Of a stretch of 64,000 bases of DNA, positions 10,575 to 64,000 are shown piece after piece (position 1 is the stretch's first letter; each line of letters opens with the position of its first letter). The translations under genes were made by a program, and so were the position numbers. Below the pieces are notes generated by a model. That model was not told the origin of the DNA. It saw nothing but the letters and a program-made list of their open reading frames with translations, and did not search any database. Origin of the DNA: a virus; IMG/VR virus record IMGVR_UViG_3300042396_000723, positions 1-64,000 of that record, one strand, 5' to 3'.

Positions 10575-10680
10575 ACTTTGTTTTACTTCTATGTTTTACA
10601 TCTTAACCGATTTGTTTTACGCTGTCAAGTAGTTTTACATCAGTCTTACTTATATGTTTTACTCGTAAGTAAGACTGATA
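10575..10680. repeat. iteron cluster A: 5 copies of GTTTTAC plus a 12-bp inverted repeat (CAGTCTTACTTA...TAAGTAAGACTG)
   Basis: GTTTTAC at about 10580, 10593, 10614, 10632, 10656; perfect IR at about 10641-10677; TGTCAAGTAGTTTTAC is shared with cluster B. Confidence 0.55.
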
Positions 10681-10724
10681 ACTTATAGATGGGTGAACTC
10701 CCCTCTAGGGAGGGGATTTGGGAT

Positions 10725-10991
10725 TTATTTAATTTTCGATTTTAACCATTTGATGATTTCGGTAACTTTCACGTCTTCCGGGAAGGTTTCAGTATCGGTA
10801 AACTCTAAGCCCGTGGGGTCGTACTGGGTAAGTTCGGCTTCTAATTGACCCTCAAAGGTAAGCGTTAAGAACAATTCGCCGTCAGATGGTAAAAAGTCAA
10901 TTTCACTATTTCCAAAGCGATAGAAGAAACCTTCTTCTGTAATCATCTTTTCAGATGCGAATGTCAGGAGCCGTTCTGTTTGGTTATTCAT
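10725..10991 (-). CDS. hypothetical protein (acidic), flanked on both sides by iteron clusters
   Basis: 88-aa ORF. Confidence 0.45.
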   Translation of the reverse strand: MNNQTERLLTFASEKMITEEGFFYRFGNSEIDFLPSDGELFLTLTFEGQLEAELTQYDPTGLEFTDTETFPEDVKVTEIIKWLKSKIK

Positions 10992-11059
10992 GATAGTTAG
11001 GTGCGGTTGTAGTGTTTGCGGGCTTTTCTTTACCCTATGTATAACAGTATAACAATTCT

Positions 11060-11190
11060 GTCTTACTTTGTCAAGTAGTTTTACTTTAGTATTACTTATA
11101 GGTTTATACTGTTTTACAGAATTACAATTAATCTTACTTATATGTCTTACTATTCGTTTTACATCGTGCTACACTTGAAGGTAAGACACA
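11060..11190. repeat. iteron cluster B: repeated GTTTTAC and CTTACTTATA(T/G)G motifs upstream of the RHH gene
   Basis: TGTCAAGTAGTTTTAC, ATTACTTATAGG, TCTTACTTATATGTCTTAC, CGTTTTAC and inverted GTAAGACA all within about 130 bp. Confidence 0.55.
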
Positions 11191-16373: not shown

Positions 16374-16557
16374 CATGAGAATACATTTGATTATTCCTAT
16401 TAAGGGGGGATGCAAGTTGACTTTGCATCAAATGTTTTATTAGAACAGGAGTACACCAATAATTTATTCTCTTTTGCTTATCAAGAGTACGAAAAATATC
16501 AGCATCAGTATTGGAATGGATTAATTAATCGCGTCAACAGTACAAGGAATGAAAACA

Positions 16558-17268
16558 ATGGCTGATAAATGTTTGGTAATTTTAAGCGGCGGTCAAGATA
16601 GTACGACTTGCTTGGCGATCGCAAAAAGTAAATTCAAAGAAGTTCACGCAGTAACTTTTAATTATGGTCAACGGCATTTAACCGAAATTGAGAGCGCGAT
16701 CAAAATAGCTGAAAAGTTAAACTTAGCTTCCCATGAAATTATCGATCTAGGTCAGGGGATTTTAAAAGGTAGCTCCCCACTGGTCAGCAACAACGAATTG
16801 GGAGTTTATAAGAATGTTGATGAATTACCTGGCGGGGTAGAACCAACTTTTGTTTATAGCAGGAATATTTTATTTTTAACTATTGCATCTAATCGCGCCG
16901 CCGTTATGGGTATTAATGATATCTTTATCGGTGTCTGTGAAGCTGATTATGCGGGTTATTTTGATTGCAGACTAGATTTTATCAATGTCATGTCGAAAGC
17001 GTTAGGAGAGGGTGTTTATGGTTCGCCCGATGCTTTTAAAATTCATACTCCGTTAATGAGCTTAACTAAAGCCGAATCGGTATTATTAGCTAAGGATTTA
17101 TTGGGTGATGATTTTGATTCAGTGATGGAATTAACCCATACTTGTTATGCGGGTGTTAAGGGCGGATGTGGTAAATGTCACGCTTGTTTGATTCGTGACA
17201 GAGGTTTTCAAGAGGCGGGAATAGTTGACCCAATATGGAAGTTTAGAAATGTATCTGTATTTAGTTGA
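16558..17268 (+). CDS. queC: 7-cyano-7-deazaguanine (preQ0) synthase QueC
   Basis: PP-loop SGGQDS and C-terminal zinc motif CYAGVKGGCGKCHAC; internal ATG preferred over track start 16549. Confidence 0.85.
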   Translation: MADKCLVILSGGQDSTTCLAIAKSKFKEVHAVTFNYGQRHLTEIESAIKIAEKLNLASHEIIDLGQGILKGSSPLVSNNELGVYKNVDELPGGVEPTFVYSRNILFLTIASNRAAVMGINDIFIGVCEADYAGYFDCRLDFINVMSKALGEGVYGSPDAFKIHTPLMSLTKAESVLLAKDLLGDDFDSVMELTHTCYAGVKGGCGKCHACLIRDRGFQEAGIVDPIWKFRNVSVFS

Positions 17269-18361
17269 TCACTCATCCGAACGCGGACAACGCAAAGTTC
17301 TTACTGAGGAGAGATATATAAGCTATTTGCAATCCTACGCATTCGTTGGACAAGCGGGTTTTATTGACACTCAAAAATATTGGGAGGAGTTATTGAGGAT
17401 TCATTTAGCTGATACAACAGCAAAACTAAATGGTGACGTTAACATAAAAGAAGTTTTAGTTGATGAAAACAAACCAGAACATCTGTTTAGTTATGCCTAC
17501 CAAAACCACGAATCTCAATGGTCTGATTCTTGGAATCAGACCATTGAGAAAAACAAGAATATGAATATACATTTAGCGGGTCATTCTGTTAACGTTGACA
17601 TGGACAAAGTGGTGAAGCCTTTACATGAAAACCATTTAACAACATTTGCAGACCAGAAAGAAGTTAAAGATACTTTGTCCATTTTGGACAAAGTATCTGA
17701 CTTAAGACCTAGAGTAATAATTGACTCAGGAGCATTTACAGCTTTTACAACTGGGAAAATAATTAATCCTAAAGATTATGCTACATGGTCTTTAGACTTT
17801 CAGAAGCGATGGGAGCATAAAATGAAATCTCTAAGTTTTATGAACCTGGACGTTATTGGTAATCAAGATGATAGCTGGAAAAATCAATCAATACTTGAAT
17901 CGTTAGGAATGAAACCGATTCCTATTATTACTTTTGGATGTGATAAAAAGCATTTAATTAGAGCATTAGATAACTATGATTATATAGCTTTAGGCGGTTT
18001 AGTTCCCCATAGTAGGAATAAAATCAAACTTCAAAAATGGTTAGATTATTGTTTCAACATAATCATGGGAAGATATAAAGAAACGGGTGTTATGTCAAGG
18101 ATTCATTTACTCGGTATAACAACTGATTGGGTACTGAAAAGATATCCCTGCTATAGTTCAGATTCGTCATCATGGGTTGCTTGTTTAAGGTTTGGCGGCG
18201 GTGCTGCTGCGGGTTTAGATAAAATACCCAGATATAAAGAATCAGATGCCGCGTTATCAGCAACAATTCACACTTTACGATCAGAGGTAGTAAAATATAA
18301 AAAGATGGAAACTGAAGCAACAAATTTATGGAAATCAAGGGGAATAATCTGGGATGACTAA
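17249..18361 (+). CDS. dpdA: DpdA-like DNA-guanine transglycosylase (TGT superfamily)
   Basis: VIIDSGAFT (cf. TGT DSGGFQ), YIALGGL and RIHLLGIT motifs; sits directly after preQ0 genes; ATG at 17249 preferred over TTG 17225. Confidence 0.65.
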   Translation: MYLYLVDHSSERGQRKVLTEERYISYLQSYAFVGQAGFIDTQKYWEELLRIHLADTTAKLNGDVNIKEVLVDENKPEHLFSYAYQNHESQWSDSWNQTIEKNKNMNIHLAGHSVNVDMDKVVKPLHENHLTTFADQKEVKDTLSILDKVSDLRPRVIIDSGAFTAFTTGKIINPKDYATWSLDFQKRWEHKMKSLSFMNLDVIGNQDDSWKNQSILESLGMKPIPIITFGCDKKHLIRALDNYDYIALGGLVPHSRNKIKLQKWLDYCFNIIMGRYKETGVMSRIHLLGITTDWVLKRYPCYSSDSSSWVACLRFGGGAAAGLDKIPRYKESDAALSATIHTLRSEVVKYKKMETEATNLWKSRGIIWDD

Positions 18362-19161: not shown

Positions 19162-19431
19162 ATGAATAACTTTAACAAAGAACTGGCTTTAAGTTTACTC
19201 GGATCTGGTAAAGAATACCCCGTTGATTTTGAAGACGCTTGGCAATGGTTGGGATATTCGAGTAAACAGGCTGCCAAAAAGAAGCTAACCCGCAACTTTG
19301 AACAAGAGGAAGACTATTTATCCGAATGGATGAAAACCCCAGATGGCGGTCGTCCTAGCGAATCCATCTATCTCACCGTCGATTGTTTCAAGGCATTAGG
19401 GATTGATTGTTTTAATGTGTTATACTATTAA
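19162..19431 (+). CDS. antirepressor N-terminal (AntA-like) fragment, candidate exon 1
   Basis: 89 aa; VDFEDAWQWLGYS...SIYLTVDCFKALGI resembles the start of phage antirepressor N-domains and stops where the homing-endonuclease gene begins. Confidence 0.4.
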   Translation: MNNFNKELALSLLGSGKEYPVDFEDAWQWLGYSSKQAAKKKLTRNFEQEEDYLSEWMKTPDGGRPSESIYLTVDCFKALGIDCFNVLYY

Positions 19432-20165
19432 AACAATCACACAACACTTTAACAATAAATGAACATCGAAATATCTTCTGTTACGCCCCATCTAATTGAA
19501 GATTTAGCTAAGACAGGAATTTATTCTATTACACAAAAGAGTACGGGAAGAAAATATATAGGGAGTACATCGGAAAATTTTTACCAAAGATGGAGGCGAC
19601 ATTTAAGCGAACTAAAAAAAGGTAATCACCATAGCCAGTTTTTGCAACGAACCTGGGATAAATATGGCTCCGATGATTTTGTATTTGAGATTATTGAATT
19701 TCACGACGTACTATCTGTTTTAGATAATTTATCTTTATTGAATTTAGAACAGTCTTATTTGGATAAATTAACTCCAGAGTTCAATATTTCACCTTCTGCA
19801 CATAGTAGAAAAGGGGTGAAAGTATCGGAAGAAACCCGCACTAGAATCAAAGAAGCAAGAAAATATCAAGTAATGAAACCCGTTAAAGAAGAAACAAAGA
19901 AAAGAATTTCAGAATCAAATAAAGGAAAACATGAGGCAAGTATTGAAACTAGAAGAAAAATGGCTGAAGCAAAAAGAGGATTACCACTTAGGGCTATAAA
20001 TACTTATGTCTTAACATCTCCACTTGGTGTTGATATCACGGTAAATAACCTAAAAGATTTTTGTCGAGAAAATAATCTGAATTATCAAAACCTTTTTCAT
20101 GTTATAAGAGGGAATAGAAAATCTTCTCAGGGATGGAAAATAGTCAAGATAAATCCCTAGAGATG
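19412..20165 (+). mobile_element. candidate HEG-containing intervening sequence (possible group I intron) in antirepressor gene
   Basis: GIY-YIG ORF lies exactly between the two antirepressor halves; boundaries are inferred from the protein break, not from intron structure. Confidence 0.3.
19459..20160 (+). CDS. GIY-YIG homing endonuclease with NUMOD3-like repeats
   Basis: GIYSIT...KYIGST, RWRRHL, and repeated S-E-x-T/N-K-G-K motifs (VSEETRTRIKEARK / ISESNKGKHEASIETRRKMAEAKRG). Confidence 0.85.
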   Translation: MNIEISSVTPHLIEDLAKTGIYSITQKSTGRKYIGSTSENFYQRWRRHLSELKKGNHHSQFLQRTWDKYGSDDFVFEIIEFHDVLSVLDNLSLLNLEQSYLDKLTPEFNISPSAHSRKGVKVSEETRTRIKEARKYQVMKPVKEETKKRISESNKGKHEASIETRRKMAEAKRGLPLRAINTYVLTSPLGVDITVNNLKDFCRENNLNYQNLFHVIRGNRKSSQGWKIVKINP

Positions 20166-20687
20166 TCAGGGACGGAGCAAGGGAAGAAAACCCGACAATA
20201 TTTCCTGCGGTGCGAGAAGGAGTTGAAAAACACTCATGGAATTAATTTACTAGACAAGCCTTCACCTCAACTGATTAGTGATGCGGTTATGGCAGTTTTC
20301 CGACCCACCAATGTTGACCCAACACTTATCTCAGGGGTCATTGCCAACAACATCGCTAAAACTTATCCGGCGCTAGCTCCTGCGATGGAAGAATCCAAAA
20401 AACATCTGACCGTCGAAGTCGAGGGAAAACTTCTCACGCCCACCGAACTCGGATTAATCTTAGAACAGCGCACTGGTGTTAAACACAGTGGCAGACGAGT
20501 TAATCAATTGTTAGCCGAGAATGGATTGCAAACTCCTAACCCCGCGGGGAAAGATCCGGCTTGGGTTCCAACTCCAGAGGGGAGTGCTTTTTCTAAACTG
20601 TTACTTGCAGCGCAGAAGGGCGTTAAGGATGCGACTAGACAACATTTGCAGTGGTTTGAATCTGTTGTAGATGTTTTGGCGGTTTAG
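20163..20687 (+). CDS. antirepressor C-terminal part (KilAC-like), candidate exon 2
   Basis: EQGKKTRQYFLRCEKEL resembles the conserved R-x-YFI-x-E segment ending antirepressor N-domains; LTPTELGLILEQRTGVKHSGRRVNQLLAENGLQ is KilAC-like. Confidence 0.4.
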   Translation: MSGTEQGKKTRQYFLRCEKELKNTHGINLLDKPSPQLISDAVMAVFRPTNVDPTLISGVIANNIAKTYPALAPAMEESKKHLTVEVEGKLLTPTELGLILEQRTGVKHSGRRVNQLLAENGLQTPNPAGKDPAWVPTPEGSAFSKLLLAAQKGVKDATRQHLQWFESVVDVLAV

Positions 20688-20704
20688 AAGGTTGAAATAG
20701 CAAA

Positions 20705-20735
20705 AACCCCAGGGGTTGAGTCCTGGGGTTTTTAA
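20705..20735 (+). terminator. intrinsic terminator
   Basis: ACCCCAGG/CCTGGGGT 8-bp stem followed by TTTTT. Confidence 0.75.
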
Positions 20736-20941
20736 GGGTTATGGCGTGGTCTAACAGTATCCTTTCTCTCTCAAGTCTTGGATTTCATGAAATCCCCAGA
20801 ATTGCTTAACAGGGATAAAACCATCTTTTGTTATTACCCGCACTTTTTTCTCGGTTTCAATAACCTCGACAACAACATTTCCAAAAAACTCAAATCCAAC
20901 CTTGATCCAGTTTGCGTTCATTTTTTGCTCCGTATAATTCG

Positions 20942-21193
20942 CTAACAGTCTGTTGACAATATCGTTCCGTGTTCCCTATTCTGTCTTTCCTTGTCTCGTC
21001 GTCTTTCGGCACATAACCGCTTCTGTTCGCGCCGATTTTCCTTTTGTTCTGGGGTTAAGTTGGCAAGGTAGCGTTTCCGCCGTTCCCTTGCCTTCTCCGT
21101 CCCCTCGTACTTCAGATCCCTGTCTTTACCCTTCTGGGTTGCCTTATACCGTTGTTGGGCTTCCCAGAGGGAGGGTTTCCATTCTTTGGTCAT
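20942..21193 (-). CDS. small basic repeat protein (family member 1)
   Basis: MTKEWKPSLWEAQQRYKATQKGKDRDLKYEGTEKARERRKRY; paralogous to 22033-22236 and 24491-24694; start at in-frame ATG. Confidence 0.4.
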   Translation of the reverse strand: MTKEWKPSLWEAQQRYKATQKGKDRDLKYEGTEKARERRKRYLANLTPEQKENRREQKRLCAERRRDKERQNREHGTILSTDC

Positions 21194-21468
21194 GTGATAA
21201 ACCACCAATATTTCTTAATTCCCGTGCTTTTCCCGTTGTTGGGACAATCCCCTTCACCCATAACGAGGTTTCCGTCATTGGTGGGATAACCGTCTTCAGT
21301 TTCCCCGACTATTGACAACATGGCTCTATTTAGTGTTTGGATTGAGCAAATAACGTCTTTTTCTTCTTTGAGTTTTTGGGCTAATTCTTTGGTAGAAACC
21401 CCGTCAATCCATCCGGGGTCGCTGTCAATTATCCCCTTGATTTTTGTTTTTAATTGTTCTATTTTCAT
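21190..21468 (-). CDS. hypothetical protein
   Basis: 92-aa ORF with ATG preceded by AAAGGAGG. Confidence 0.5.
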   Translation of the reverse strand: MKIEQLKTKIKGIIDSDPGWIDGVSTKELAQKLKEEKDVICSIQTLNRAMLSIVGETEDGYPTNDGNLVMGEGDCPNNGKSTGIKKYWWFIT

Positions 21469-21538
21469 CTGTCCTCCTTTGTGCGTTTTGGTTTATTAAA
21501 TCCCTAGCCGTTTGGTGTTTGGCTAGGGTGTGGGGTTG

Positions 21539-21961
21539 TTAGATTGGTCGCCCTCTTTCGTCTCGGAGGTAAGGCAAATCATTTTCTTGATTAGCTTTAA
21601 CTTCTGTTTTAAAATTGTTCTCTTGCAACCACCGCCATAAAGCTCTCATTTCAGGTTTATTTTCATCTGTTAAGTCAAAATCACTTGTGATAGTTTGTCC
21701 ATCACCTTTACATCCCCACAGGATTTGAATTTGCTCAAATGGTGCAATTACGTTTACTTTCAAACCGTTTTGTTTTTGCGCTCTGTAACGGTCAACACCT
21801 TGTTGATACGTCGCTTTCCCCGCTTTTTTAGGGTATTTAGTAGATAAGGAGATTGTCTTTGCTCCGGCACACAAAAAACATCTTCCGTTGGCAATATGAG
21901 AAAATTCTTTCAAAAATCCTTTAGCGTCACATCTTGGGCAGTCTATTTGTTGGCAGTTCAT
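21539..21961 (-). CDS. hypothetical zinc-ribbon protein
   Basis: N-terminal CPRC...CFLC pairs; 140 aa. Confidence 0.5.
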   Translation of the reverse strand: MNCQQIDCPRCDAKGFLKEFSHIANGRCFLCAGAKTISLSTKYPKKAGKATYQQGVDRYRAQKQNGLKVNVIAPFEQIQILWGCKGDGQTITSDFDLTDENKPEMRALWRWLQENNFKTEVKANQENDLPYLRDERGRPI

Positions 21962-22000
21962 TGTTTCGTCCTTTGCTTTTGGGTGTTGTTCAATAATCTA

Positions 22001-22047
22001 AATATAGTAGACTTACGGCTATATGTCAACCCCTAAAATAAAATATT
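22001..22047 (-). promoter_or_regulatory. sigma70-like promoter (TTGACA-17-TATATT) with conserved upstream element, copy 1
   Basis: Minus-strand reading AATATTTTATTTTAGGGGTTGACA-17 nt-TATATT about 40 nt upstream of the 21961 start. Confidence 0.4.
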
Positions 22048-22236
22048 GTTTTTGCCTTTCCTGTGGCAAGTTCGGCACGTCGCAGGAGTTTTTGTTACGA
22101 GCCACTGAATCCGTCCACAGTGAAAACATTGACCCTTTCTATCGCCCCTCAACTCCTCTAACTTCTTCCTGTTCCGTTTGTTGTACTCAGTCCGGTTTTT
22201 TCTGCCCTTTTCTGAGTGGTTATAGTTGTCTGTCAT
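22033..22236 (-). CDS. small basic protein (family member 2)
   Basis: MTDNYNHSEKGRKNRTEYNKRNRKK...CFHCG...CRTC; ATG start; conflicts with plus-strand ORF 22023-22328, which was not chosen. Confidence 0.35.
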   Translation of the reverse strand: MTDNYNHSEKGRKNRTEYNKRNRKKLEELRGDRKGQCFHCGRIQWLVTKTPATCRTCHRKGKNNILF

Positions 22237-22324
22237 GTTATTATGAGTTAGTGGTTTTCTGTGACAAGTTCGCCACAAAGAAAGCCGGATCAATTGATCC
22301 GGCTTTTGGTTTGTTGCCTGAAAA

Positions 22325-22606
22325 TTAAAGCCAATCAGACCCCAAATTAAGAGCCGAATCGACTACGGCACCCTCAGGGAGTTCTTCTATTCCCAGTTCT
22401 TTAGCCATAGCGTCTTCGTCAAGACACGCATATCGGGCGCATTTTTTAGCTAATTCATAAAAGTCTTCATGCACCCAGTAGCCCCATTGACAGTCATACT
22501 GACCGCCAGAGATAAAACGATAGTGATTCTCTATCAATTTTTGTCTGTGATCTTCTAGTGAAACAAAAGCGTTTTCGATTTCCAATCCTTTGCTGTAGTC
22601 TTTCAT
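22325..22606 (-). CDS. hypothetical protein
   Basis: Start moved to the internal ATG because the track's TTG start at 22669 lies inside the -35 hexamer. Confidence 0.45.
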   Translation of the reverse strand: MKDYSKGLEIENAFVSLEDHRQKLIENHYRFISGGQYDCQWGYWVHEDFYELAKKCARYACLDEDAMAKELGIEELPEGAVVDSALNLGSDWL

Positions 22607-22639
22607 CTTGTTTGCTTGGTATTTTCTGTGACTTCCTAA

Positions 22640-22687
22640 ATAGTACACGGTGACAAGTTGTATTGTCAACCCCTAAAATAAAATATT
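22640..22687 (-). promoter_or_regulatory. sigma70-like promoter with conserved upstream element, copy 2
   Basis: The same 24-mer TGTCAACCCCTAAAATAAAATATT (plus strand) as at 22024-22047; minus reading TTGACA-18 nt-TACTAT. Confidence 0.4.
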
Positions 22688-22735
22688 TTTTAGATTGACT
22701 GAACCCCTTGCTATGTAAGGAGTTCAGTCTTTTGG

Positions 22736-23029
22736 TTAATCCTCAAATTTTGCCTTGAGAGCCAGCATAGCCTTTTTCTTCTTATGCCTTAAATAAGATT
22801 CGGCATCGGTCAATTTCCTGCCTGGAAAAATAGACGGTCTCCCTATAGGCTTAGGATCAGTTTTGGGATGAATCCTCGGTCTTCCCACGGGCTTAGGATC
22901 GGAGGTTTGGGACGCTCCGCAGGGGGTACAGCGCCATTTTTGCCGACCATCAGGACGCACCCCGTTCTTTTTCATCCTATGCCCACACTTTGGACAGGAC
23001 AGATGTTTTTCCGTGTTATCGTTGATCAT
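22736..23029 (-). CDS. zinc-ribbon (InsA-like) plus AT-hook-like DNA-binding protein
   Basis: CPKCGHRMKKNGVRPDGRQKWRCTPCG zinc ribbon, then PKPVGRPRIHP and PKPIGRPSIFPGRK GRP motifs. Confidence 0.5.
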   Translation of the reverse strand: MINDNTEKHLSCPKCGHRMKKNGVRPDGRQKWRCTPCGASQTSDPKPVGRPRIHPKTDPKPIGRPSIFPGRKLTDAESYLRHKKKKAMLALKAKFED

Positions 23030-23187
23030 CAGTAGCCTGTTATATAGGTTTGCTCAAGTCCCCAGATGTTTTGTCACATCGTGGGGATATTGCATTATTA
23101 TATCATTTTATCTTGGTAGCGCGATCGCTTAAAATCCCTAGCAACAATCAGGGTTACAGCCAATTTAAAAATAATTTTATAAAACGC

Positions 23188-23216
23188 TTGACATATCGTA
23201 GTAAGTAGATTATAGT
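23188..23216 (+). promoter_or_regulatory. sigma70-like promoter
   Basis: TTGACA-17 nt-TATAGT about 30 nt upstream of the 23248 start. Confidence 0.45.
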
Positions 23217-23247
23217 TGTATTAACAACACGCAAAGGACTCAAGACA

Positions 23248-24432
23248 GTGGACATCAAAGATATCGCTAAAGAAATCCGTGTAATTCTTGCCAACAGCTT
23301 CTACAAAACCAAATTCTCAGTTAAGATTAGTCGATTCAGTCAAGGATCATCAGCCGATATTACCTGGACTGATGGCCCCACAGAAAAACAGGTTAATGAA
23401 TTAGTTGGTTATTTTGGAGACACCCGATCTAAATTCATAAATACAACCCGCCTACATAGCGCGACACTGATTAACGGGGCGATCGCAAAATGGAAAGAGT
23501 TTCACCCTAGCCAAGCTCATTTAACCTTAAATTGTGTAGCATCTGGACTTGATCATTATGCAGCCTTTGATATTACCGAGTTTGGTTCCAACAACCCTGA
23601 TTTACCTCTCTATGAACAATCCATCTATGAGATTGTTCGCCATTCAATTCTTGATGAAACGGGTATCCGTGTTACTGGTGATTTAATCTCTAATGAAGAA
23701 TTGGTCAAACTCAATGAGTTAACCGAACCCGAAACCGAAACTCAAGAAACCATCACCCCTATTAAAATCAACTCACTCGCTGAACCGATTTATATTCAAG
23801 GAAATTACCCATCTTTAAACAAGTGCAATACAATTCAGCAATACATTCGGCAGGAAGACAATAATCGCACATTAACCCAGATAAGTAAGATAGTTGAACT
23901 TTCGTCAAAGGATTATCGTGAGTTCCTTCAAAACTTATTACAGCCCCACGAATGGCTCAATGGGGAAGGTGGGAGTGACAGTTTTTATAAGTCACCGCAC
24001 GGCGATAATTCAATAGCACTGATTAACGATAAAATTGAATTAAAAAAATGGTTAGCTGAACGCTACACAATTGCATTGTTAGTCACCAATGGATCTGAGT
24101 ACATTCTAGTTGACCCTCAAGGATATCGTTATGCCCGATACGTTGGCTTTGGTGTTGAGATGACACTTGACGATATTCTAAAGCTCTCGGAAGGGACAAC
24201 TACCGAACCTGAATTAGAAATAGCCGCGCCCGAACCCGAATCCAATCTAGTCCCATTCAAAAAACCAGTCCCTAGTTCAACACCCACGCCCGCACAAAAC
24301 CCCCAAAGTTCAGAGGATGTATTTTTTATCCAGACATACGAAGCATGGGTCAAGAAGCTGATGACAAAAGGGGAACTCAATAAGATTAAGAGCTTTGATG
24401 ATTGGTATGCGATCGCATCTCAAGTCCTTTAA
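23248..24432 (+). CDS. hypothetical protein
   Basis: 394-aa ORF, GTG start; Pro/Glu-rich C-terminal linker. Confidence 0.55.
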   Translation: MDIKDIAKEIRVILANSFYKTKFSVKISRFSQGSSADITWTDGPTEKQVNELVGYFGDTRSKFINTTRLHSATLINGAIAKWKEFHPSQAHLTLNCVASGLDHYAAFDITEFGSNNPDLPLYEQSIYEIVRHSILDETGIRVTGDLISNEELVKLNELTEPETETQETITPIKINSLAEPIYIQGNYPSLNKCNTIQQYIRQEDNNRTLTQISKIVELSSKDYREFLQNLLQPHEWLNGEGGSDSFYKSPHGDNSIALINDKIELKKWLAERYTIALLVTNGSEYILVDPQGYRYARYVGFGVEMTLDDILKLSEGTTTEPELEIAAPEPESNLVPFKKPVPSSTPTPAQNPQSSEDVFFIQTYEAWVKKLMTKGELNKIKSFDDWYAIASQVL

Positions 24433-24442
24433 TTAAACAATC

Positions 24443-24468
24443 CCCTAGTTATCACAGCTAGGGGTTTT
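24443..24468 (+). terminator. intrinsic terminator
   Basis: CCCCTAG/CTAGGGG stem followed by TTTT. Confidence 0.7.
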
Positions 24469-24490
24469 AGAACAATATAACGGGGTAATT

Positions 24491-24694
24491 ATGACTGATT
24501 GGAGTGAGTCTCAATGGCAAGCGCACAAACGCTACGAAGCCACCGAGAAGGCAAAAAAAAGACAGGCTAAATATGAATCCACCGAGAAGGCAAAGAAAAG
24601 ACAGGCTAAATATGAATCCACCGAGGAAGCTAAAGAAAAGCGACGGGTAAGGCAACGGCTTTACCTTCTCAGGAAAAAGGGATTAGCAGAATAA
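24491..24694 (+). CDS. small basic repeat protein (family member 3)
   Basis: Internal tandem KYESTEKAKKRQA repeats encoded by about 42-bp DNA repeats; N-terminus MTDWSESQWQAHKRYEAT matches the paralogs. Confidence 0.45.
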   Translation: MTDWSESQWQAHKRYEATEKAKKRQAKYESTEKAKKRQAKYESTEEAKEKRRVRQRLYLLRKKGLAE

Positions 24695-24698
24695 ATAA

Positions 24699-24734
24699 TT
24701 ATCCCGATCATTTGTAGTGATCGGGATAATTTTT
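24699..24734. terminator. bidirectional intrinsic terminator
   Basis: TTATCCCGATCA/TGATCGGGATAA 12-bp stem, loop TTTGTAG, then TTTTT; between converging genes. Confidence 0.7.
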
Positions 24735-24971
24735 CTACGCACTTAATACGATTGCAGCCGGATAAATTGCCATGTAATCGTTTTCACCTAAGCTGATTTT
24801 CTGTTGCTCAACTAAAGTAAAAATTGCAAACCAGAATACTTTTTCACTCAATCCCAAATCTTTCTGAGCTTTGGAGGGATAGGTAAATACTGCCCTCTTT
24901 CCTAGGAATTGAGGGATTAACCATTTTTCCACAATGGTGCTCGCATTCTCTAGTTCTTGAGTATTAATCAT
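24735..24971 (-). CDS. hypothetical protein
   Basis: 78-aa ORF. Confidence 0.4.
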   Translation of the reverse strand: MINTQELENASTIVEKWLIPQFLGKRAVFTYPSKAQKDLGLSEKVFWFAIFTLVEQQKISLGENDYMAIYPAAIVLSA

Positions 24972-61934: not shown

Positions 61935-64000
61935 TTATGCCGTGTAAATTATTGTTATTTTAACTGGTTTTGATAAAATATTTTCGCTATTTGTTGGATG
62001 ATTTATTATTTGTATGTCCGCCACTGACACGGACACGGAAAAATGAAGACCAACAAACTGTGTATCATATCCAGACAATACAAACGCGTTTGCGCTGAAT
62101 TCCACTAATACTGTGACGGATACAATTTTTGAAACCGTAACTCCATGAGCTATTAATGCAACCCCCCCTTCAGTTGCAGCCGTAGTCCCCGTCAAAACTT
62201 TAATCTTAATCCCTGGATGATTAGCGTCCCCACCTAAAGAACTGAAACCACCAACATATTGATTTCCTCCAATCCCCTGTCCCCCAGGAATTACACTAGC
62301 TCCCGTGGTGGGAGATGTTGAAGGTGTTGTGGAATTAGTTGATATCACACCTCTTAGGTAGGTATTGGTGATACTTGAATCACCAATTGTTACGGTGTTT
62401 GAGCCGTTACCGGTGGCGTTAAAACAAAATACGTTTTCGTTGGTTGCGTTCTGGGTTCCTTTTGTATTTGCGCCAAAAAAACAAGAGTTATTTGAGATAG
62501 TTAGACCTGTAACGCCGTCAGAAGTGAAGCGTCCTGCACCAACTCCAAAACCTGCCAAATTACTCCCTGTTATATTGCTGAAAAGCGCACCAACTCCAGA
62601 GGCAGTTAAATTATTCCCTGTAGTGTTATTTTCTAAAGCCCCAACGCCAAAAGCAGACGAATTATTCCCTGTAGTATTAGAACGAAGCGCATTAAGTCCA
62701 GCGGCAGTTAAACTACTCCCTGTAATATTGGACAAAAGCGCACTAACTCCAACTGCCGTTGAATAATTCCCTGTGGTGTTATTTTGTAAAGCCCCAGTTC
62801 CAAAACCTGCCAGGCCAATACCTGTGGTATTGGCCTGGAGCACACTAACTCCTGTTATTGTATTTGTGTCTAAACTCCCCCCTCCTCTCCCAATAGGAAT
62901 CAAATTATAAGAATTGGCACTAACAGTACCAGCAAAAATAGCACCCGTAACCCCTAAACTAGCGACCCTTAAAGCCCCTGTAGTTGTTGATGTTGATTGG
63001 GTTGATAGGGGAATATGAAATCTCGAACTATCAACAGAGAAATAAGTAGTCGCACCATCTCCCCAGGATTGAATCCCTGTCGATATATCTCTCTCCCACC
63101 ACGTTCTAGTGGTACTCAGGGGAATGTTAAAGGAAGCATCAACAGCTATCCCGTTATGAAAACTGGTTGTATTCCAGTCTACACCATTAGCTTTCCGACA
63201 AAGCCAAGTTCTTTCTGTTATTATGTTTCCTGATGCCCCTGTTTTTGAAGATAAAACTTGAAAATCTCCAGATGTACTACCGAGAGGAGACCCTTGATAT
63301 AGACTAACTCCTGCACCTAAAGAACCTATTATGTTTCCGTTTACTGCTAGATTCCCCGTGATAGTCCCACCCGCCAATGAAAGATAGGAATTAATATCAA
63401 TTGAATAAGTCCCATCCCCTGTTTTCTTTAGGAATCCTGGGGTGTCGGATAGCGATTGAATAGCAATTAATTCGTTGCCGATACTGTTAGTTGAAACCGC
63501 AGTTACTTGACCCTTAGCATTGACAGTAATAGCAGGAATTGAACTAGCACTACCGAAAGAACCAGCATTACTATTGACCGTTGCCAGTGTTATCGCACTT
63601 GTAACATTGGCTGAACCATCAAAAGATACTGAATAACTAGCATCCCCCGTTGTTGTAATTGTCCGTGGCGTGGTTAGTTTTAAAGCCTCTCCCGCAGTAG
63701 CAGAACTCGATATCTCAACATAAACAGAACCCGACCATCGGTAAACTTTATTAGTCGTTTCATCAACGTAAATCTTTCCAGTTTCACCCGTACCTGGGAA
63801 CCCGGCAAGGTTTGTATAACTCAGGACATCATCAACATAAGACGGTAAAAGCCCAGATGAAATTGTGCCAGACGCGGCGTTTAAACTTGTTAAAACTTCG
63901 TTACCAGTAGACGCGATCGCACCAACATCAGACGCGGTTAAACTAATCTGAGCTTTAGGAACCTTGGTATTTGAATCCAAGGTAGCCACACCATTAGCCA
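61935..64000 (-). CDS. tail fibre-like protein, N-terminus outside window
   Basis: Frame stays open upstream of the GTG at 63989 to the window edge; Thr/Ser/Gly-rich with about six 17-19-aa N-x-TG-x(4)-A-x-G-x-(G)AL repeats; KIYVDETTNKVYRWSGSVYVEI fibre-like segment. Confidence 0.55.
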   Translation of the reverse strand, partial: ANGVATLDSNTKVPKAQISLTASDVGAIASTGNEVLTSLNAASGTISSGLLPSYVDDVLSYTNLAGFPGTGETGKIYVDETTNKVYRWSGSVYVEISSSATAGEALKLTTPRTITTTGDASYSVSFDGSANVTSAITLATVNSNAGSFGSASSIPAITVNAKGQVTAVSTNSIGNELIAIQSLSDTPGFLKKTGDGTYSIDINSYLSLAGGTITGNLAVNGNIIGSLGAGVSLYQGSPLGSTSGDFQVLSSKTGASGNIITERTWLCRKANGVDWNTTSFHNGIAVDASFNIPLSTTRTWWERDISTGIQSWGDGATTYFSVDSSRFHIPLSTQSTSTTTGALRVASLGVTGAIFAGTVSANSYNLIPIGRGGGSLDTNTITGVSVLQANTTGIGLAGFGTGALQNNTTGNYSTAVGVSALLSNITGSSLTAAGLNALRSNTTGNNSSAFGVGALENNTTGNNLTASGVGALFSNITGSNLAGFGVGAGRFTSDGVTGLTISNNSCFFGANTKGTQNATNENVFCFNATGNGSNTVTIGDSSITNTYLRGVISTNSTTPSTSPTTGASVIPGGQGIGGNQYVGGFSSLGGDANHPGIKIKVLTGTTAATEGGVALIAHGVTVSKIVSVTVLVEFSANAFVLSGYDTQFVGLHFSVSVSVADIQIINHPTNSENILSKPVKITIIYTA

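What the first reader, a model, noticed from the sequence alone, without database searches (positions are those of the whole stretch)
22001..22687. Duplicated 24-bp promoter cassette driving two minus-strand genes
TGTCAACCCCTAAAATAAAATATT occurs identically at 22024-22047 and 22664-22687. On the minus strand each copy gives an AT-rich UP-like element followed by TTGACA and, 17-18 nt on, a -10-like hexamer, positioned about 40 nt upstream of the starts of 21539-21961 and 22325-22606. The track's TTG start at 22669 lies inside the -35 hexamer. This looks like a phage promoter class.
Basis: seen in the sequence. Interest (0 to 1): 0.45.

Follow-up and report, generated by a model that had tools for sequence, protein, structure and literature searches.

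The report
Split promoter marking a gene-cassette insertion
The two identical 24-base stretches are the upstream halves of two predicted strong host-type promoters in a Planktothrix cyanophage, and they are identical because a 640-base promoter-gene-terminator module recombined into a single ancestral promoter, a known way for phages to shuffle genes that is seen here at single-base resolution in a new phage group.

Summary
The 24-mer occurs exactly twice (22024-47 and 22664-87). On the minus strand each copy reads AT-rich tract, GGGG, TTGACA, followed by TATATT (N17) or TACTAT (N18), 33-39 nt before an ATG.

The promoter reading is well supported by sequence, but it is not the reason the copies are identical. 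About 20 related PaV-LD-like phage contigs carry one promoter at this site, downstream of a Lar-like gene. Its upstream half matches window copy 2 and its downstream half matches copy 1. One natural contig (L048) is 100% identical to the window for 637 nt across the junction and lacks exactly the 640-bp unit.

The inserted module carries:
- its own -10 region and 5'UTR;
- a 93-aa gene of unknown function;
- a strong terminator;
- a conserved 67-aa zinc-ribbon gene whose 3' end is fused into copy 1.

The same module frame, with other cargo genes, sits next to a resolvase gene in two other contigs. The left junction is a homologous exchange within about 28 nt of shared promoter. The right junction is an A-rich microhomology.

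The closest known analogue is PeSL-mediated cassette shuffling in T4-type phages, together with morons. This is a new member of a known kind. Promoter activity and the recombination route are inferred, not shown.

The parts
22736..23029 (-). Lar-like restriction-alleviation gene (97 aa). It is the conserved upstream neighbour and was used as the anchor for fetching relatives.
   Evidence: PHROG 6422, E=5.7e-41. 91% DNA identity to PaV-LD ORF107L. 32 related loci were fetched with it.
22697..22729 (-). Stem-loop directly after the Lar-like gene and 4 nt before the AT-rich tract of copy 2. It is part of the ancestral promoter block.
   Evidence: 13-bp stem, dG -20 kcal/mol, z=-6.1. Present in all close relatives with some stem and loop changes. 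In contig L042 a recombination breakpoint falls between 22693 and 22692.
22664..22687 (-). 24-mer copy 2: AT-rich UP-like tract, GGGG linker and the -35 TTGACA (22669-22664). Its upstream flank is the ancestral one.
   Evidence: Its upstream flank is the same as in the single-promoter relatives.
22634..22663 (-). P2-specific 18-nt spacer, the -10 TACTAT (22645-22640) and the predicted start region (about 22633). This is the 5' end of the inserted module.
   Evidence: The core CACCGTGTACTATTTAG..GTCACAGAAA is homologous to promoters that carry the same 24-mer at another locus in L061 and L066.
22325..22606 (-). orf93, the cargo gene of the inserted module. Function unknown.
   Evidence: No Pfam or PHROG match. 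One exact cluster in 5.8 billion proteins. Nine distant relatives of about 90 aa with conserved WVHxD and LGxEELPEGA motifs. AlphaFold2 model with pLDDT 83 but no fold match.
22280..22307 (.). Bidirectional intrinsic terminator of the module.
   Evidence: 12-bp stem with T-rich runs on both strands. dG -24.3, z=-5.4. L066 and L061 have hairpins at the same position with different stem sequences and about the same dG of -24.6 and -24.7.
22255..22277 (-). Conserved palindrome-like element TGTGGCG-N6-GTCACAGAAA between the terminator and the small ORF. Role unknown.
   Evidence: Conserved in the window, L066 and L061. It is related to the 18-mer at 22057-22074. The 10-mer AACTTGYCAC occurs three times inside the insert against 0.26 expected in the whole window.
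22033..22236 (-). sORF: a 67-aa basic zinc-ribbon protein (CFHCG..CRTCH). It forms the 3' part of the module. Its last five codons and stop codon lie inside 24-mer copy 1.
   Evidence: 68-aa homologues in L066 and L061 at 74-78% aa identity, where the gene is translationally coupled to a RuvC-like resolvase gene. Both population SNPs in the 1.15-kb block are synonymous in this frame. No significant family match.
22024..22047 (-). 24-mer copy 1: UP-like tract, GGGG and the -35 TTGACA (22029-22024). Its downstream flank is the ancestral one.
   Evidence: Its downstream flank is the same as in the single-promoter relatives.
21962..22023 (-). Ancestral P1 core: 17-nt spacer, the -10 TATATT (22006-22001), predicted start about 21994, and a conserved 5'UTR with an AAGGA ribosome-binding site.
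   Evidence: TATAGCCGTAAGTCTAC-TATATT-TAGATTATTGAA..AAGCAAAGGAC is conserved in 13 viral contigs, always at this locus.
21539..21961 (-). orf140, the resident gene of the variable slot in this lineage. It has N-terminal CxxC..CxxC motifs and unknown function.
   Evidence: No family match. Relatives have at least 8 other unrelated genes at this position.
21502..21528 (-). Conserved hairpin CCCTAGCC..GGCTAGGG that closes the variable slot on its 3' side.
   Evidence: dG -14.8, z=-4.8. Present after the different slot genes in L008, L010, L011, L013, L015, L016 and L035.
22048..22663 (-). The 616 bp of inserted DNA. Together with one 24-mer it makes the 640-bp unit that is absent from empty-site relatives.
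   Evidence: blastn maps of L001, L003 and L004. L048 is identical to the window for 637 nt across the junction and lacks exactly this unit.

Best explanation
The window comes from a relative of Planktothrix cyanophage PaV-LD. In this phage group, a Lar-like anti-restriction gene is followed by, in order:
- a stem-loop;
- a single strong sigma-70-type promoter (AT-rich UP-like tract, a 4-5 nt G/C linker, TTGACA, 17 nt, TATATT);
- a conserved 5'UTR;
- a slot that holds a different small gene in each lineage, closed by a conserved hairpin.

In the window's lineage a 616-bp module was inserted into that promoter immediately after TTGACA. The module consists of a second promoter core (spacer, TACTAT, 5'UTR), the 93-aa cargo gene, a bidirectional terminator and a 67-aa zinc-ribbon gene.

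The incoming module had its own promoter with the same UP/-35 sequence, so the left junction is a homologous exchange within about 28 identical bases. The right junction joins the 3' end of the zinc-ribbon gene to the A-rich start of the resident UP tract by microhomology.

The result is two complete hybrid promoters that share an identical 24-mer. The upstream one (P2) should drive orf93 up to the terminator. The downstream one (P1, regenerated by the duplication) should keep driving orf140 and the genes behind it. The insertion therefore adds a self-contained transcription unit without silencing the resident operon.

**Shown:** the sequence anatomy, the empty and filled sites, both junctions, the module frame at a second locus, and a second independent tandem-cassette case.

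**Inferred:**
- that host RNA polymerase with its primary sigma factor uses these promoters, probably early in infection;
- that the route was Campbell-type integration of a small circle, or an equivalent unequal crossover between co-infecting phages.
For: **1. Promoter anatomy**
- Perfect -35 hexamers, 17/18-nt spacers, and -10 hexamers matching 5/6 and 4/6 positions. The upstream 21 nt are 90-95% A+T. Positions are 33-39 nt before the ATGs.
- The layout is enriched 100-fold or more over Markov-1 simulations: 6 against 0.025 in the window, 4 against 0.045 in PaV-LD. Two sites are orthologous between the two phages.
- PaV-LD has no annotated RNA polymerase or sigma factor among its 142 ORFs.

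**2. A single ancestral promoter**
- L001/L011, L003/L012, L004/L013, L008, L009/10, L015/35, L016/34, L028, L029-31, L063, L064, L068 and PaV-LD all have one promoter after the Lar-like gene.
- Its upstream half corresponds to window copy 2 and its downstream half to window copy 1.

**3. Precise empty site**
- L048 equals window 22739-22664 joined to 22023-21463 with no mismatch over 637 nt.

**4. The insertion is the derived state**
- All outgroups are single-copy, with different linker alleles: ATTTTAGGGG, ATAAAAACGC, CTGAAAACGC, ATAAAACGC.
- The sORF in the window ends ..KNNILF* inside the 24-mer. Its homologues end ..KNND* and overlap a resolvase start codon.

**5. The module frame exists elsewhere**
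- L061 and L066 have the same 28-nt UP/-35, a homologous -10/5'UTR, other cargo (86 aa; 267+88 aa), a terminator hairpin at the same place with different stem sequences, the conserved palindrome-like element and the sORF.
- They sit at the locus homologous to window 32.6 kb.

**6. The same kind of scar occurs elsewhere**
- In L066, 47 nt of the resolvase 5' end are repeated on both sides of the module.
- L063 has two full cassettes of about 140 nt (hairpin + promoter + UTR), carrying different lineage alleles, around a 179-aa gene.

**7. The block moves as a unit**
- Among contigs whose flanks vary at about 10% of sites, the 1.15-kb block 22692-21516 has 2 variable sites. In L042 a breakpoint lies at the hairpin/UP boundary.
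Against: - No transcription data exist. Promoter use, strength and timing are predictions from consensus matches, and the scan tool itself warns that such matches are not evidence of function.
- UP-element function is established for E. coli RNA polymerase (my own knowledge). It is not shown for Planktothrix.
- The predicted circle junction (sORF end + 24-mer + P2 core) was not found in assembled viral contigs. The donor phage with orf93 in its original context was also not found; orf93 occurs only in this arrangement.
- The direction of the event at the population level is ambiguous. L048 could be a secondary deletion between the two 24-mers rather than the ancestral state.
- No single-strand annealing recombinase was recognised in the window. 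Only a RuvC-like resolvase was found.
- The sORF lies behind a strong terminator and has no recognisable promoter, so its expression is unexplained.
Confidence: 0.75

Rival explanations
1. Plain promoter duplication. In this view the 24-mer is a promoter-class cassette kept identical by selection, so that two neighbouring genes are co-regulated, and gene mobility plays no part.
For: Both copies sit in near-consensus promoters, and a promoter class of this layout exists.
Against: - Other class members in the same genome differ at many of the 24 positions.
- Orthologous single promoters in relatives carry other linker sequences, so exact identity is not required for function.
- Identity stops abruptly at TTGACA and at AAT, and both are recombination junctions.
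- A precise empty site exists.
Confidence: 0.07
2. The two-promoter arrangement is ancestral, and the single-promoter relatives arose by deletion between the 24-mer repeats.
For: Recombination between 24-bp direct repeats would give exactly the L048 sequence. PeSL-flanked ORFans in T4-type phages are thought to be lost this way (PMC2839356).
Against: - Every outgroup, including PaV-LD, is single-copy. They carry different linker alleles and different slot genes, so many independent deletions would be needed.
- The sORF 3' end in the window is a fusion relative to its native resolvase-linked form.

Secondary loss in individual lineages such as L048 remains possible and is compatible with the main explanation.
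Confidence: 0.1
3. The unit is a transposon-like or site-specific element. The 24-mer would then be a target-site duplication or an attachment site.
For: Direct repeats flank the insert. PaV-LD encodes an integrase.
Against: - No transposase, integrase or endonuclease domain in orf93 or the sORF.
- No terminal inverted repeats at the insert ends.
- 24 bp is far longer than usual target duplications (my own knowledge).
- The other scars are 47 nt and about 140 nt long and lie at other sequences, which argues against one specific site.
- The left end is explained by promoter homology and the right end by microhomology.
Confidence: 0.03
4. The module is a dedicated mobile gene cassette. In this view the zinc-ribbon sORF protein and the conserved TGTGGCG-N6-GTCACAGAAA / AACTTGYCAC sites form its own targeting or regulatory system, perhaps working with the phage's RuvC-like resolvase.
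For: - The module has a conserved frame with variable cargo at two different loci.
- The sORF is under purifying selection.
- Three copies of the 10-mer lie inside 616 bp against 0.26 expected per 64 kb.
- The sORF is natively coupled to the resolvase gene.
Against: - Only three independent module copies are known.
- The sORF has no detectable catalytic domain.
- The junctions are fully explained by ordinary homology and microhomology.
- The motifs could equally be operators or RNA elements.
Confidence: 0.1

Closest known systems
PeSLs (promoter-early stem-loops) of T4-type phages (Arbiol et al. 2010, PMC2839356; Comeau et al. 2014, PMC4122927)
   Same: - A strong sigma-70-like promoter with an AT-rich tract upstream of -35, placed next to a stem-loop terminator and in front of small ORFan genes in a highly variable region.
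[quoted passage not shown] This is exactly the window versus L048 relationship.
- The inserted unit brings its own promoter and terminator.
   Different: - The host phage is a PaV-LD-like cyanophage, not a T4-type myovirus.
- There are only about 6 promoters of the class per 64 kb, not about 50 per genome, and most lack an adjacent stem-loop.
- The P1 core occurs at one locus only.
- Only the UP/-35 half is shared by the two copies.
- One junction is a microhomology inside a coding sequence.
- Mini-circles have not been observed.
Morons of lambdoid and other temperate phages (Juhala et al. 2000; Hendrix et al. 2000; cited from my own knowledge, papers not read here)
   Same: An extra gene lies between two elements that are adjacent in related phages. 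It is bracketed by its own promoter and its own factor-independent terminator.
   Different: - Base composition is not different from the surrounding genome: GC 0.429 against 0.408, sd 0.036.
- The unit also carries a second conserved gene behind the terminator.
- It is inserted inside a promoter and regenerates it.
- Expression from a prophage is not at issue here.
Short conserved boundary or linker sequences in the modular theory of phage evolution (Susskind and Botstein 1978; boundary sequences in lambdoid phages, Clark et al. 2001; from my own knowledge)
   Same: Short conserved regulatory sequences at gene borders act as crossover points between otherwise unrelated genes. Here they are the promoter plus 5'UTR on one side and the CCCTAGCC..GGCTAGGG hairpin on the other.
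   Different: Here the linkers are identifiable functional signals (promoter, ribosome-binding region, terminator-like hairpin), and both empty and filled alleles are available from natural populations.
UP-element-containing sigma-70 promoters, such as E. coli rrnB P1 and the early promoters of T-odd and T-even phages (Estrem et al. 1998, cited in PMC5408793; the consensus is recalled from memory)
   Same: An A/T tract about 10-25 nt upstream of a consensus -35. AAAAATATTTT fits the distal UP subsite pattern AAAWWTWTTTT as I recall it.
   Different: The tract sits one base closer to the -35 than in the E. coli consensus. The host is a cyanobacterium, for which alpha-CTD/UP interactions at such promoters are not documented in the papers I could read.

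Membership tests
Sigma-70-type (group 1 sigma) promoter | -35 hexamer close to TTGACA | tested here: met
   6 of 6 positions in both copies.
Sigma-70-type (group 1 sigma) promoter | -10 hexamer close to TATAAT, with A at position 2 and T at position 6, 16-18 nt after the -35 | tested here: met
   TATATT at N17 (5/6) and TACTAT at N18 (4/6).
Sigma-70-type (group 1 sigma) promoter | Transcripts start 5-9 nt downstream of the -10 in vivo | not testable with these tools
   No RNA data were available. Public Sandusky Bay metatranscriptomes exist (PMC10343443).
UP element | A/T-rich tract at about -40 to -60 that matches the UP consensus and raises transcription through the alpha C-terminal domain | tested here: inconclusive
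   90-95% A+T over 21 nt, and AAAAATATTTT fits the recalled distal subsite. The consensus comes from memory because the Estrem 1998 paper is not held. The functional effect is untested.
PeSL regulatory cassette | [quoted passage not shown] | tested here: met
PeSL regulatory cassette | A stable stem-loop is an integral part of each motif | tested here: not met
   Only copy 2 has one (z=-6.1). Copy 1 does not (z=-1.0). The class members at 1727, 23188, 56269 and 11074 do not either (z from +0.5 to -1.5).
PeSL regulatory cassette | Dozens of copies per genome, concentrated in hyperplastic regions | tested here: not met
   6 class members in 64 kb and 4 in the 95-kb PaV-LD genome. The P1 core occurs at a single locus in 13 contigs.
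PeSL regulatory cassette | Cassettes flank ORFans that are present or absent between close relatives, with one chimeric cassette at the empty site | tested here: met
   The window against L048, L011, L012 and others. A second case is L063.
PeSL regulatory cassette | Excised mini-circles carrying one chimeric cassette | tested here: inconclusive
   The predicted circle junction is absent from assembled viral contigs. Raw reads and PCR could not be examined.
Moron | Extra DNA between elements that are adjacent in related phages | tested here: met
Moron | Own promoter upstream and own terminator downstream of the gene | tested here: met
   Predicted P2. Terminator with dG -24.3 and z=-5.4, structurally conserved in L061 and L066.
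Moron | Base composition different from the neighbouring genes | tested here: not met
   GC 0.429 against a window mean of 0.408 (sd 0.036). 30% of 616-bp windows are as GC-rich or richer.
Transposable element | Transposase gene and terminal inverted repeats | tested here: not met
   No such domains. No terminal inverted repeats.
Free-standing homing endonuclease cassette | Encodes an HNH, GIY-YIG or LAGLIDADG nuclease | tested here: not met
   The sORF has CxxCG..CxxCH but no nuclease-family match. orf93 has none. A true GIY-YIG gene lies elsewhere, at 19459-20160.

The most novel reading that the evidence does not exclude
The 640-bp unit may belong to a previously undescribed type of phage gene cassette. 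Its fixed frame would be a 5' promoter with the 24-mer and a 3' terminator plus a zinc-ribbon gene, with TGTGGCG-N6-GTCACAGAAA / AACTTGYCAC sites. This frame would carry interchangeable cargo genes and actively promote or regulate its own movement between loci and phages, with the zinc-ribbon protein acting at those sites, possibly together with the RuvC-like resolvase it is natively coupled to.
Probability: 0.1. Interest if true: 0.75.

Novelty: new member of a known kind. Interest (0 to 1): 0.4.

Why it matters
It gives a base-resolution natural example of how phages add a self-contained transcription unit without damaging the resident operon. Filled site, exact empty site, related donor-type modules and both junctions are all in hand. 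The mechanism is recombination inside a promoter, which duplicates the polymerase-recruiting half.

It extends the PeSL principle from T4-type coliphages and vibriophages to an unrelated freshwater cyanophage group that infects the bloom-forming Planktothrix.

It also marks the slot next to the Lar-like anti-restriction gene as a hot spot. At least eight unrelated small genes of unknown function are exchanged there behind one strong promoter, which makes it a sensible place to look for host-takeover or anti-defence genes.

In practical terms, it corrects one gene start (ATG at 22606, not TTG at 22669) and adds a missed 67-aa gene (22033-22236).

Tried and rejected
- **Rfam, permissive mode, 20600-23400:** only sub-threshold chance hits on the terminator, so there is no known RNA in the 230-nt stretch.
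- **tRNA scans:** none in the window, nor in L061, L062 or L066.
- **orf93 function:** no Pfam or PHROG match. Relatives found by exhaustive HMMER carry no annotation. A confident AlphaFold2 model (pLDDT 83) has no significant match in PDB or BFVD.
- **sORF as a decayed HNH endonuclease:** no support from Pfam, PHROGs or the large protein database. Its resemblance to the KYxxTEK-repeat proteins of the window is weak.
- **Slot genes of the relatives:** no Pfam hits.
- **Transposon model:** no terminal inverted repeats and no transposase (and the family searches).
- **Host or prophage origin of the 24-mer:** absent from 185,579 representative cellular genomes.
- **Circle or tandem junction, and further P2-core copies, in IMG/VR:** none beyond the window's own contig.
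- **A recombinase that could use short homology:** only a RuvC-like resolvase was recognised.
- **My own errors, corrected in the same session:** one script mis-oriented the two SNPs and was corrected. One string comparison returned False only because of end trimming and was redone properly.
Full report
**Observation.** The 24-mer TGTCAACCCCTAAAATAAAATATT occurs exactly at 22024-22047 and 22664-22687. There is no further match in 64 kb even with three mismatches, and none in shuffled sequence. Read on the minus strand, each copy is AATATTTTATTTTA-GGGG-TTGACA. Copy 1 is followed by a 17-nt spacer and TATATT (11 of 12 consensus positions). Copy 2 is followed by an 18-nt spacer and TACTAT (10 of 12). 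The -10 hexamers end 39 and 33 nt before the ATGs of ORFs 21961-21539 (140 aa) and 22606-22325 (93 aa). The TTG at 22669 that opens the longest ORF is part of the -35 hexamer. Nine independent metagenome gene calls use the ATG at 22606 instead.

**Genome context.** The window is a diverged relative of Planktothrix phage PaV-LD, with patchy DNA identity of 67-91%. PaV-LD has no annotated RNA polymerase or sigma factor among its 142 ORFs, so host-type promoters are expected. The gene upstream of copy 2 is a Lar-like restriction-alleviation gene (PHROG 6422, E=5.7e-41). A strong bidirectional terminator lies at 22280-22307, between the two copies.

**A promoter class exists, but the 24-mer is not its consensus.** I searched for a perfect TTGACA with at least 85% A+T in the 21 nt that end 5 nt upstream, and a TAnnnT hexamer 16-18 nt downstream.
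- The window has six such sites (1727+, 23188+, 56269+, 22669-, 22029-, 11074-) against 0.025 expected from Markov-1 simulations.
- PaV-LD has four against 0.045. Two of them are orthologous to window sites with nearly identical upstream sequence.
- Each window site lies 31-76 nt before an ORF of at least 76 aa.
- The sites share the pattern AAAAAWATTTT, 9-10 nt, TTGACA, but differ at many positions. The exact 24-mer is therefore not explained by promoter function alone.

**What the relatives show.** The exact 24-mer occurs in four IMG/VR contigs. One of them is the window's own contig (100% identity over 13.6 kb). The other three carry a single copy whose upstream flank is that of window copy 2 and whose downstream flank is that of window copy 1.

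Anchoring on the Lar-like gene fetched 32 loci. In the close clade, and in PaV-LD, the gene is followed by, in order:
- a conserved stem-loop (GACTGAACTCCTT..AAGGAGTTCAGTC; dG -20, z=-6.1);
- AATCTAAAAAATATTTT;
- a 9-10-nt linker that differs between lineages (ATTTTAGGGG, ATAAAAACGC, CTGAAAACGC, ATAAAACGC);
- TTGACA, then TATAGCCGTAAGTCTAC, then TATATT;
- a conserved 5'UTR ending in AAGCAAAGGACAAATCAA, then an ATG.

The gene that follows differs in each lineage. Including the window and PaV-LD, there are at least eight unrelated proteins of 70-179 aa, none with a Pfam match. Most are followed by a conserved hairpin CCCTAGCC..GGCTAGGG (window 21502-21528; z=-4.8). The P1 core occurs once per contig and always at this locus. 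The ancestral state is thus one promoter in front of a variable one-gene slot.

**Empty and filled sites.** Contig L048 (ENA ERZ27315772) carries orf140 behind an unsplit promoter. It equals window 22739-22664 joined directly to 22023-21463, with no mismatch over 637 nt. The window differs from it only by the 640-bp unit, which is 616 bp of new DNA plus one 24-mer. Nine other contigs from ENA, JGI and Logan assemblies have the filled arrangement with the same 640-bp spacing.

Among these contigs the flanks vary strongly: 10.5% of Lar-gene sites, 17% of the intergenic stretch 21469-21538, and 9.7% of orf92 sites. The 1.15-kb block from 22692 to about 21516 has only two variable sites, and in L042 the upstream breakpoint falls between 22693 and 22692. 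The promoter-to-hairpin block therefore spreads as a unit among diverged backbones.

**Content of the insert, 5' to 3' on the minus strand:**
- a spacer, the -10 TACTAT and a 27-nt leader;
- orf93, which has no family match and a single exact cluster in 5.8 billion proteins. It does have nine distant relatives of about 90 aa with conserved motifs, so it is a real gene. A confident model (pLDDT 83) matches no known fold;
- the terminator;
- a palindrome-like element, TGTGGCGAACTTGTCACAGAAAA;
- a 67-aa ORF (22236-22033) with a basic N-terminus and CFHCG..CRTCH. Its last codons and stop are supplied by 24-mer copy 1.

That small ORF is a real gene. L066 and L061 encode 68-aa homologues at 74-78% identity, and both SNPs in the 1.15-kb block are synonymous third-position changes in its frame.

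**The module exists elsewhere.** A metagenome scan for the 24-mer found two contigs, L061 and L066, in which the same 28 nt AAAAAATATTTTATTTTAGGGGTTGACA are followed by:
- a spacer, then CACCGTGTAYTATTTAGAAATAGTCACAGAAA, which is homologous to the window's P2 -10 region and leader;
- other cargo genes (86 aa in L061; 267 and 88 aa in L066);
- a terminator hairpin at the same position with different stem sequences and the same stability;
- the same palindrome-like element;
- the small ORF, there overlapping the start codon of a RuvC-like resolvase gene.

Their flanks are homologous to window 33011-32659 and 32684-32467. In the window and in PaV-LD no such module is present at that position. So the frame of P2 promoter, cargo, terminator and small ORF is conserved, carries variable cargo, and occupies at least two different loci.

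**Junctions.**
- *Left junction.* The resident promoter (as in L048) and P2-type promoters (as in L061 and L066) share 28 identical bases ending in TTGACA. The window sequence follows the resident one upstream of this stretch and the P2 type downstream. This is a homologous exchange.
- *Right junction.* The native 3' end of the small ORF is ..GGAAAAAACAAT|GATTGA and the resident promoter reads ..CTAAAAAAT|ATTTTATTTTAGGGG. The window reads ..GGCAAAAACAAT|ATTTTATTTTAGGGG. This is a join at the microhomology AAAAA(C)AAT.

These two junctions explain exactly why the repeat is 24 nt long, starts with AAT and ends with TTGACA.

The simplest route is a small circle carrying the 24-mer, the P2 core, orf93, the terminator and the truncated small ORF, closed at the microhomology. 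It would integrate by one crossover within the resident 24-mer. An unequal double exchange between co-infecting genomes gives the same product. I could not distinguish the two routes, and the predicted circle junction is absent from assembled viral contigs.

**The same type of scar recurs.**
- In L066 the module is bracketed by a 47-nt repeat of the 5' end of the resolvase gene.
- In L063 a 179-aa gene is bracketed by two complete ~140-nt copies of stem-loop, UP tract, -35, P1 core and 5'UTR. These copies carry different lineage alleles of the hairpin loop and linker, so they were brought together by recombination between different phages. The join lies at a GGATTAA microhomology.

**How it most likely works.** Each promoter should be read by host RNA polymerase with its primary sigma factor. 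The consensus -35, the good -10 and the A/T tract predict high strength, as for the early promoters of phages that lack their own polymerase. This rests on established knowledge of sigma-70 promoters, and timing is an inference. After the insertion, P2 (resident UP/-35 plus incoming -10) drives orf93 up to the terminator. P1 (duplicated UP/-35 plus resident -10 and leader) restores expression of orf140 and the downstream genes, which the terminator would otherwise cut off. The duplication is thus both the by-product of the recombination and the reason the insertion is tolerated.

**Comparison with known systems.** The closest match is the PeSL system of T4-type phages. PeSLs are strong sigma-70-like promoters with an AT-rich upstream region and an associated stem-loop. 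They flank ORFans in hyperplastic regions. An ORFan flanked by two PeSLs in RB49 is replaced by one chimeric PeSL in phi1, and mini-circles have been detected (PMC2839356; PMC4122927).
- *Same here:* the shared logic and the empty/filled signature.
- *Not met here:* an integral stem-loop in every copy and a high copy number. The phage lineage is also unrelated.

I therefore say it works like a PeSL exchange without filing it as a PeSL. The unit also fits the moron definition (extra gene, own promoter, own terminator) except for a deviant base composition, which it lacks. Transposon, site-specific and homing-endonuclease models fail on their defining features.

**Novelty and limits.** No paper I could find discusses promoters or cassette exchange in PaV-LD-like phages. 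"Promoter" does not occur in the main omics paper on them. The principle is known, so I rate this a new member of a known kind, with moderate interest.

Three things remain unexplained:
- the function of orf93 and of the zinc-ribbon gene;
- how the zinc-ribbon gene is expressed behind a strong terminator;
- the role of the conserved TGTGGCG-N6-GTCACAGAAA element and of AACTTGYCAC, which occurs three times within the insert against 0.26 expected per 64 kb.

These leave open a more novel reading, a dedicated cassette system, to which I give about 10%.

Noticed in passing
window 22033-22236 (-): An unannotated but conserved 67-aa zinc-ribbon gene (CFHCG..CRTCH). Its stop codon lies inside 24-mer copy 1. 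Its homologues in L061 and L066 are translationally coupled to a RuvC-like resolvase gene.
   Followed up: yes
window 22255-22277, 22057-22074 and 22650-22659 (-): A conserved palindrome-like element TGTGGCG-N6-GTCACAGAAA and three copies of AACTTGYCAC lie inside the 616-bp insert (0.26 expected per 64 kb). GTCACAGAAA also sits at the predicted start of P2 in the window, L061 and L066. This could be an operator, an alternative promoter or an RNA element; the role is unresolved.
   Followed up: partly
window 19404-20161: A free-standing GIY-YIG homing endonuclease gene (19459-20160; Pfam GIY-YIG E=2.9e-10, PHROG 314 E=3.3e-28). It is precisely absent from relative L001, whose alignment jumps from window 19403 to 20162.
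   Followed up: partly
window 23011-24740: A 1.7-kb segment absent from L001, L003, L004 and PaV-LD, where the 78-aa gene (24735-24971) directly precedes the Lar-like gene. It holds a promoter of the same class at 23188 (+), a 394-aa ORF with an LPD29 domain, a 67-aa ORF made of KYESTEKAKKRQA repeats, and a hairpin at 24697-24731.
   Followed up: partly
window 10576-11151: Two 71-nt repeats (77% identical, 446 bp apart). Each contains a TTGACA-N17 promoter on the minus strand and is studded with GTAAAAC/GTAAGAC heptamers before, within and after the promoter. They look like iterons or operators, possibly a regulatory or replication region.
   Followed up: no
window 16549-18361: QueC-like (PHROG 1550, E=2.9e-64) and queuine tRNA-ribosyltransferase-like (PHROG 887, E=6.4e-36) genes, suggesting 7-deazaguanine DNA modification. 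They lie in a region that is largely absent from L001.
   Followed up: no
L063 40-215 and 755-930: An independent tandem duplication of the whole ~140-nt stem-loop + promoter + 5'UTR cassette around a 179-aa gene. The two copies carry different lineage alleles (linker ATTTTAGGGG against ATAAAAACGC).
   Followed up: yes
L066 627-673 and 2217-2263: 47 nt of the 5' end of the resolvase gene are repeated on both sides of the P2-cargo-terminator-sORF module. This is the same kind of short-homology insertion scar as in the window.
   Followed up: partly
L062 378-401: The exact 24-mer appears in an unrelated, lower-GC (36%) metagenome contig. It is followed by a 17-nt spacer and a perfect TATAAT, and preceded by a sequence resembling a tRNA 3' end (GTTCGAGTCTCTCCTCTTGCA), although ARAGORN finds no tRNA there.
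   Followed up: partly
window 62536-62841 and 2387-2541: 51-nt tandem repeats inside the 684-aa ORF 61935-63989, and short Pro/Glu-rich repeats (48-nt units, 96% identical) inside ORF 2101-2766.
   Followed up: no
window 20942-21208 (-) and 24491-24694 (+): Two small basic proteins share W..Q.RY.AT.K.K.R..KYE.TEKA motifs. They form a small paralogous family of unknown function near the variable region.
   Followed up: no
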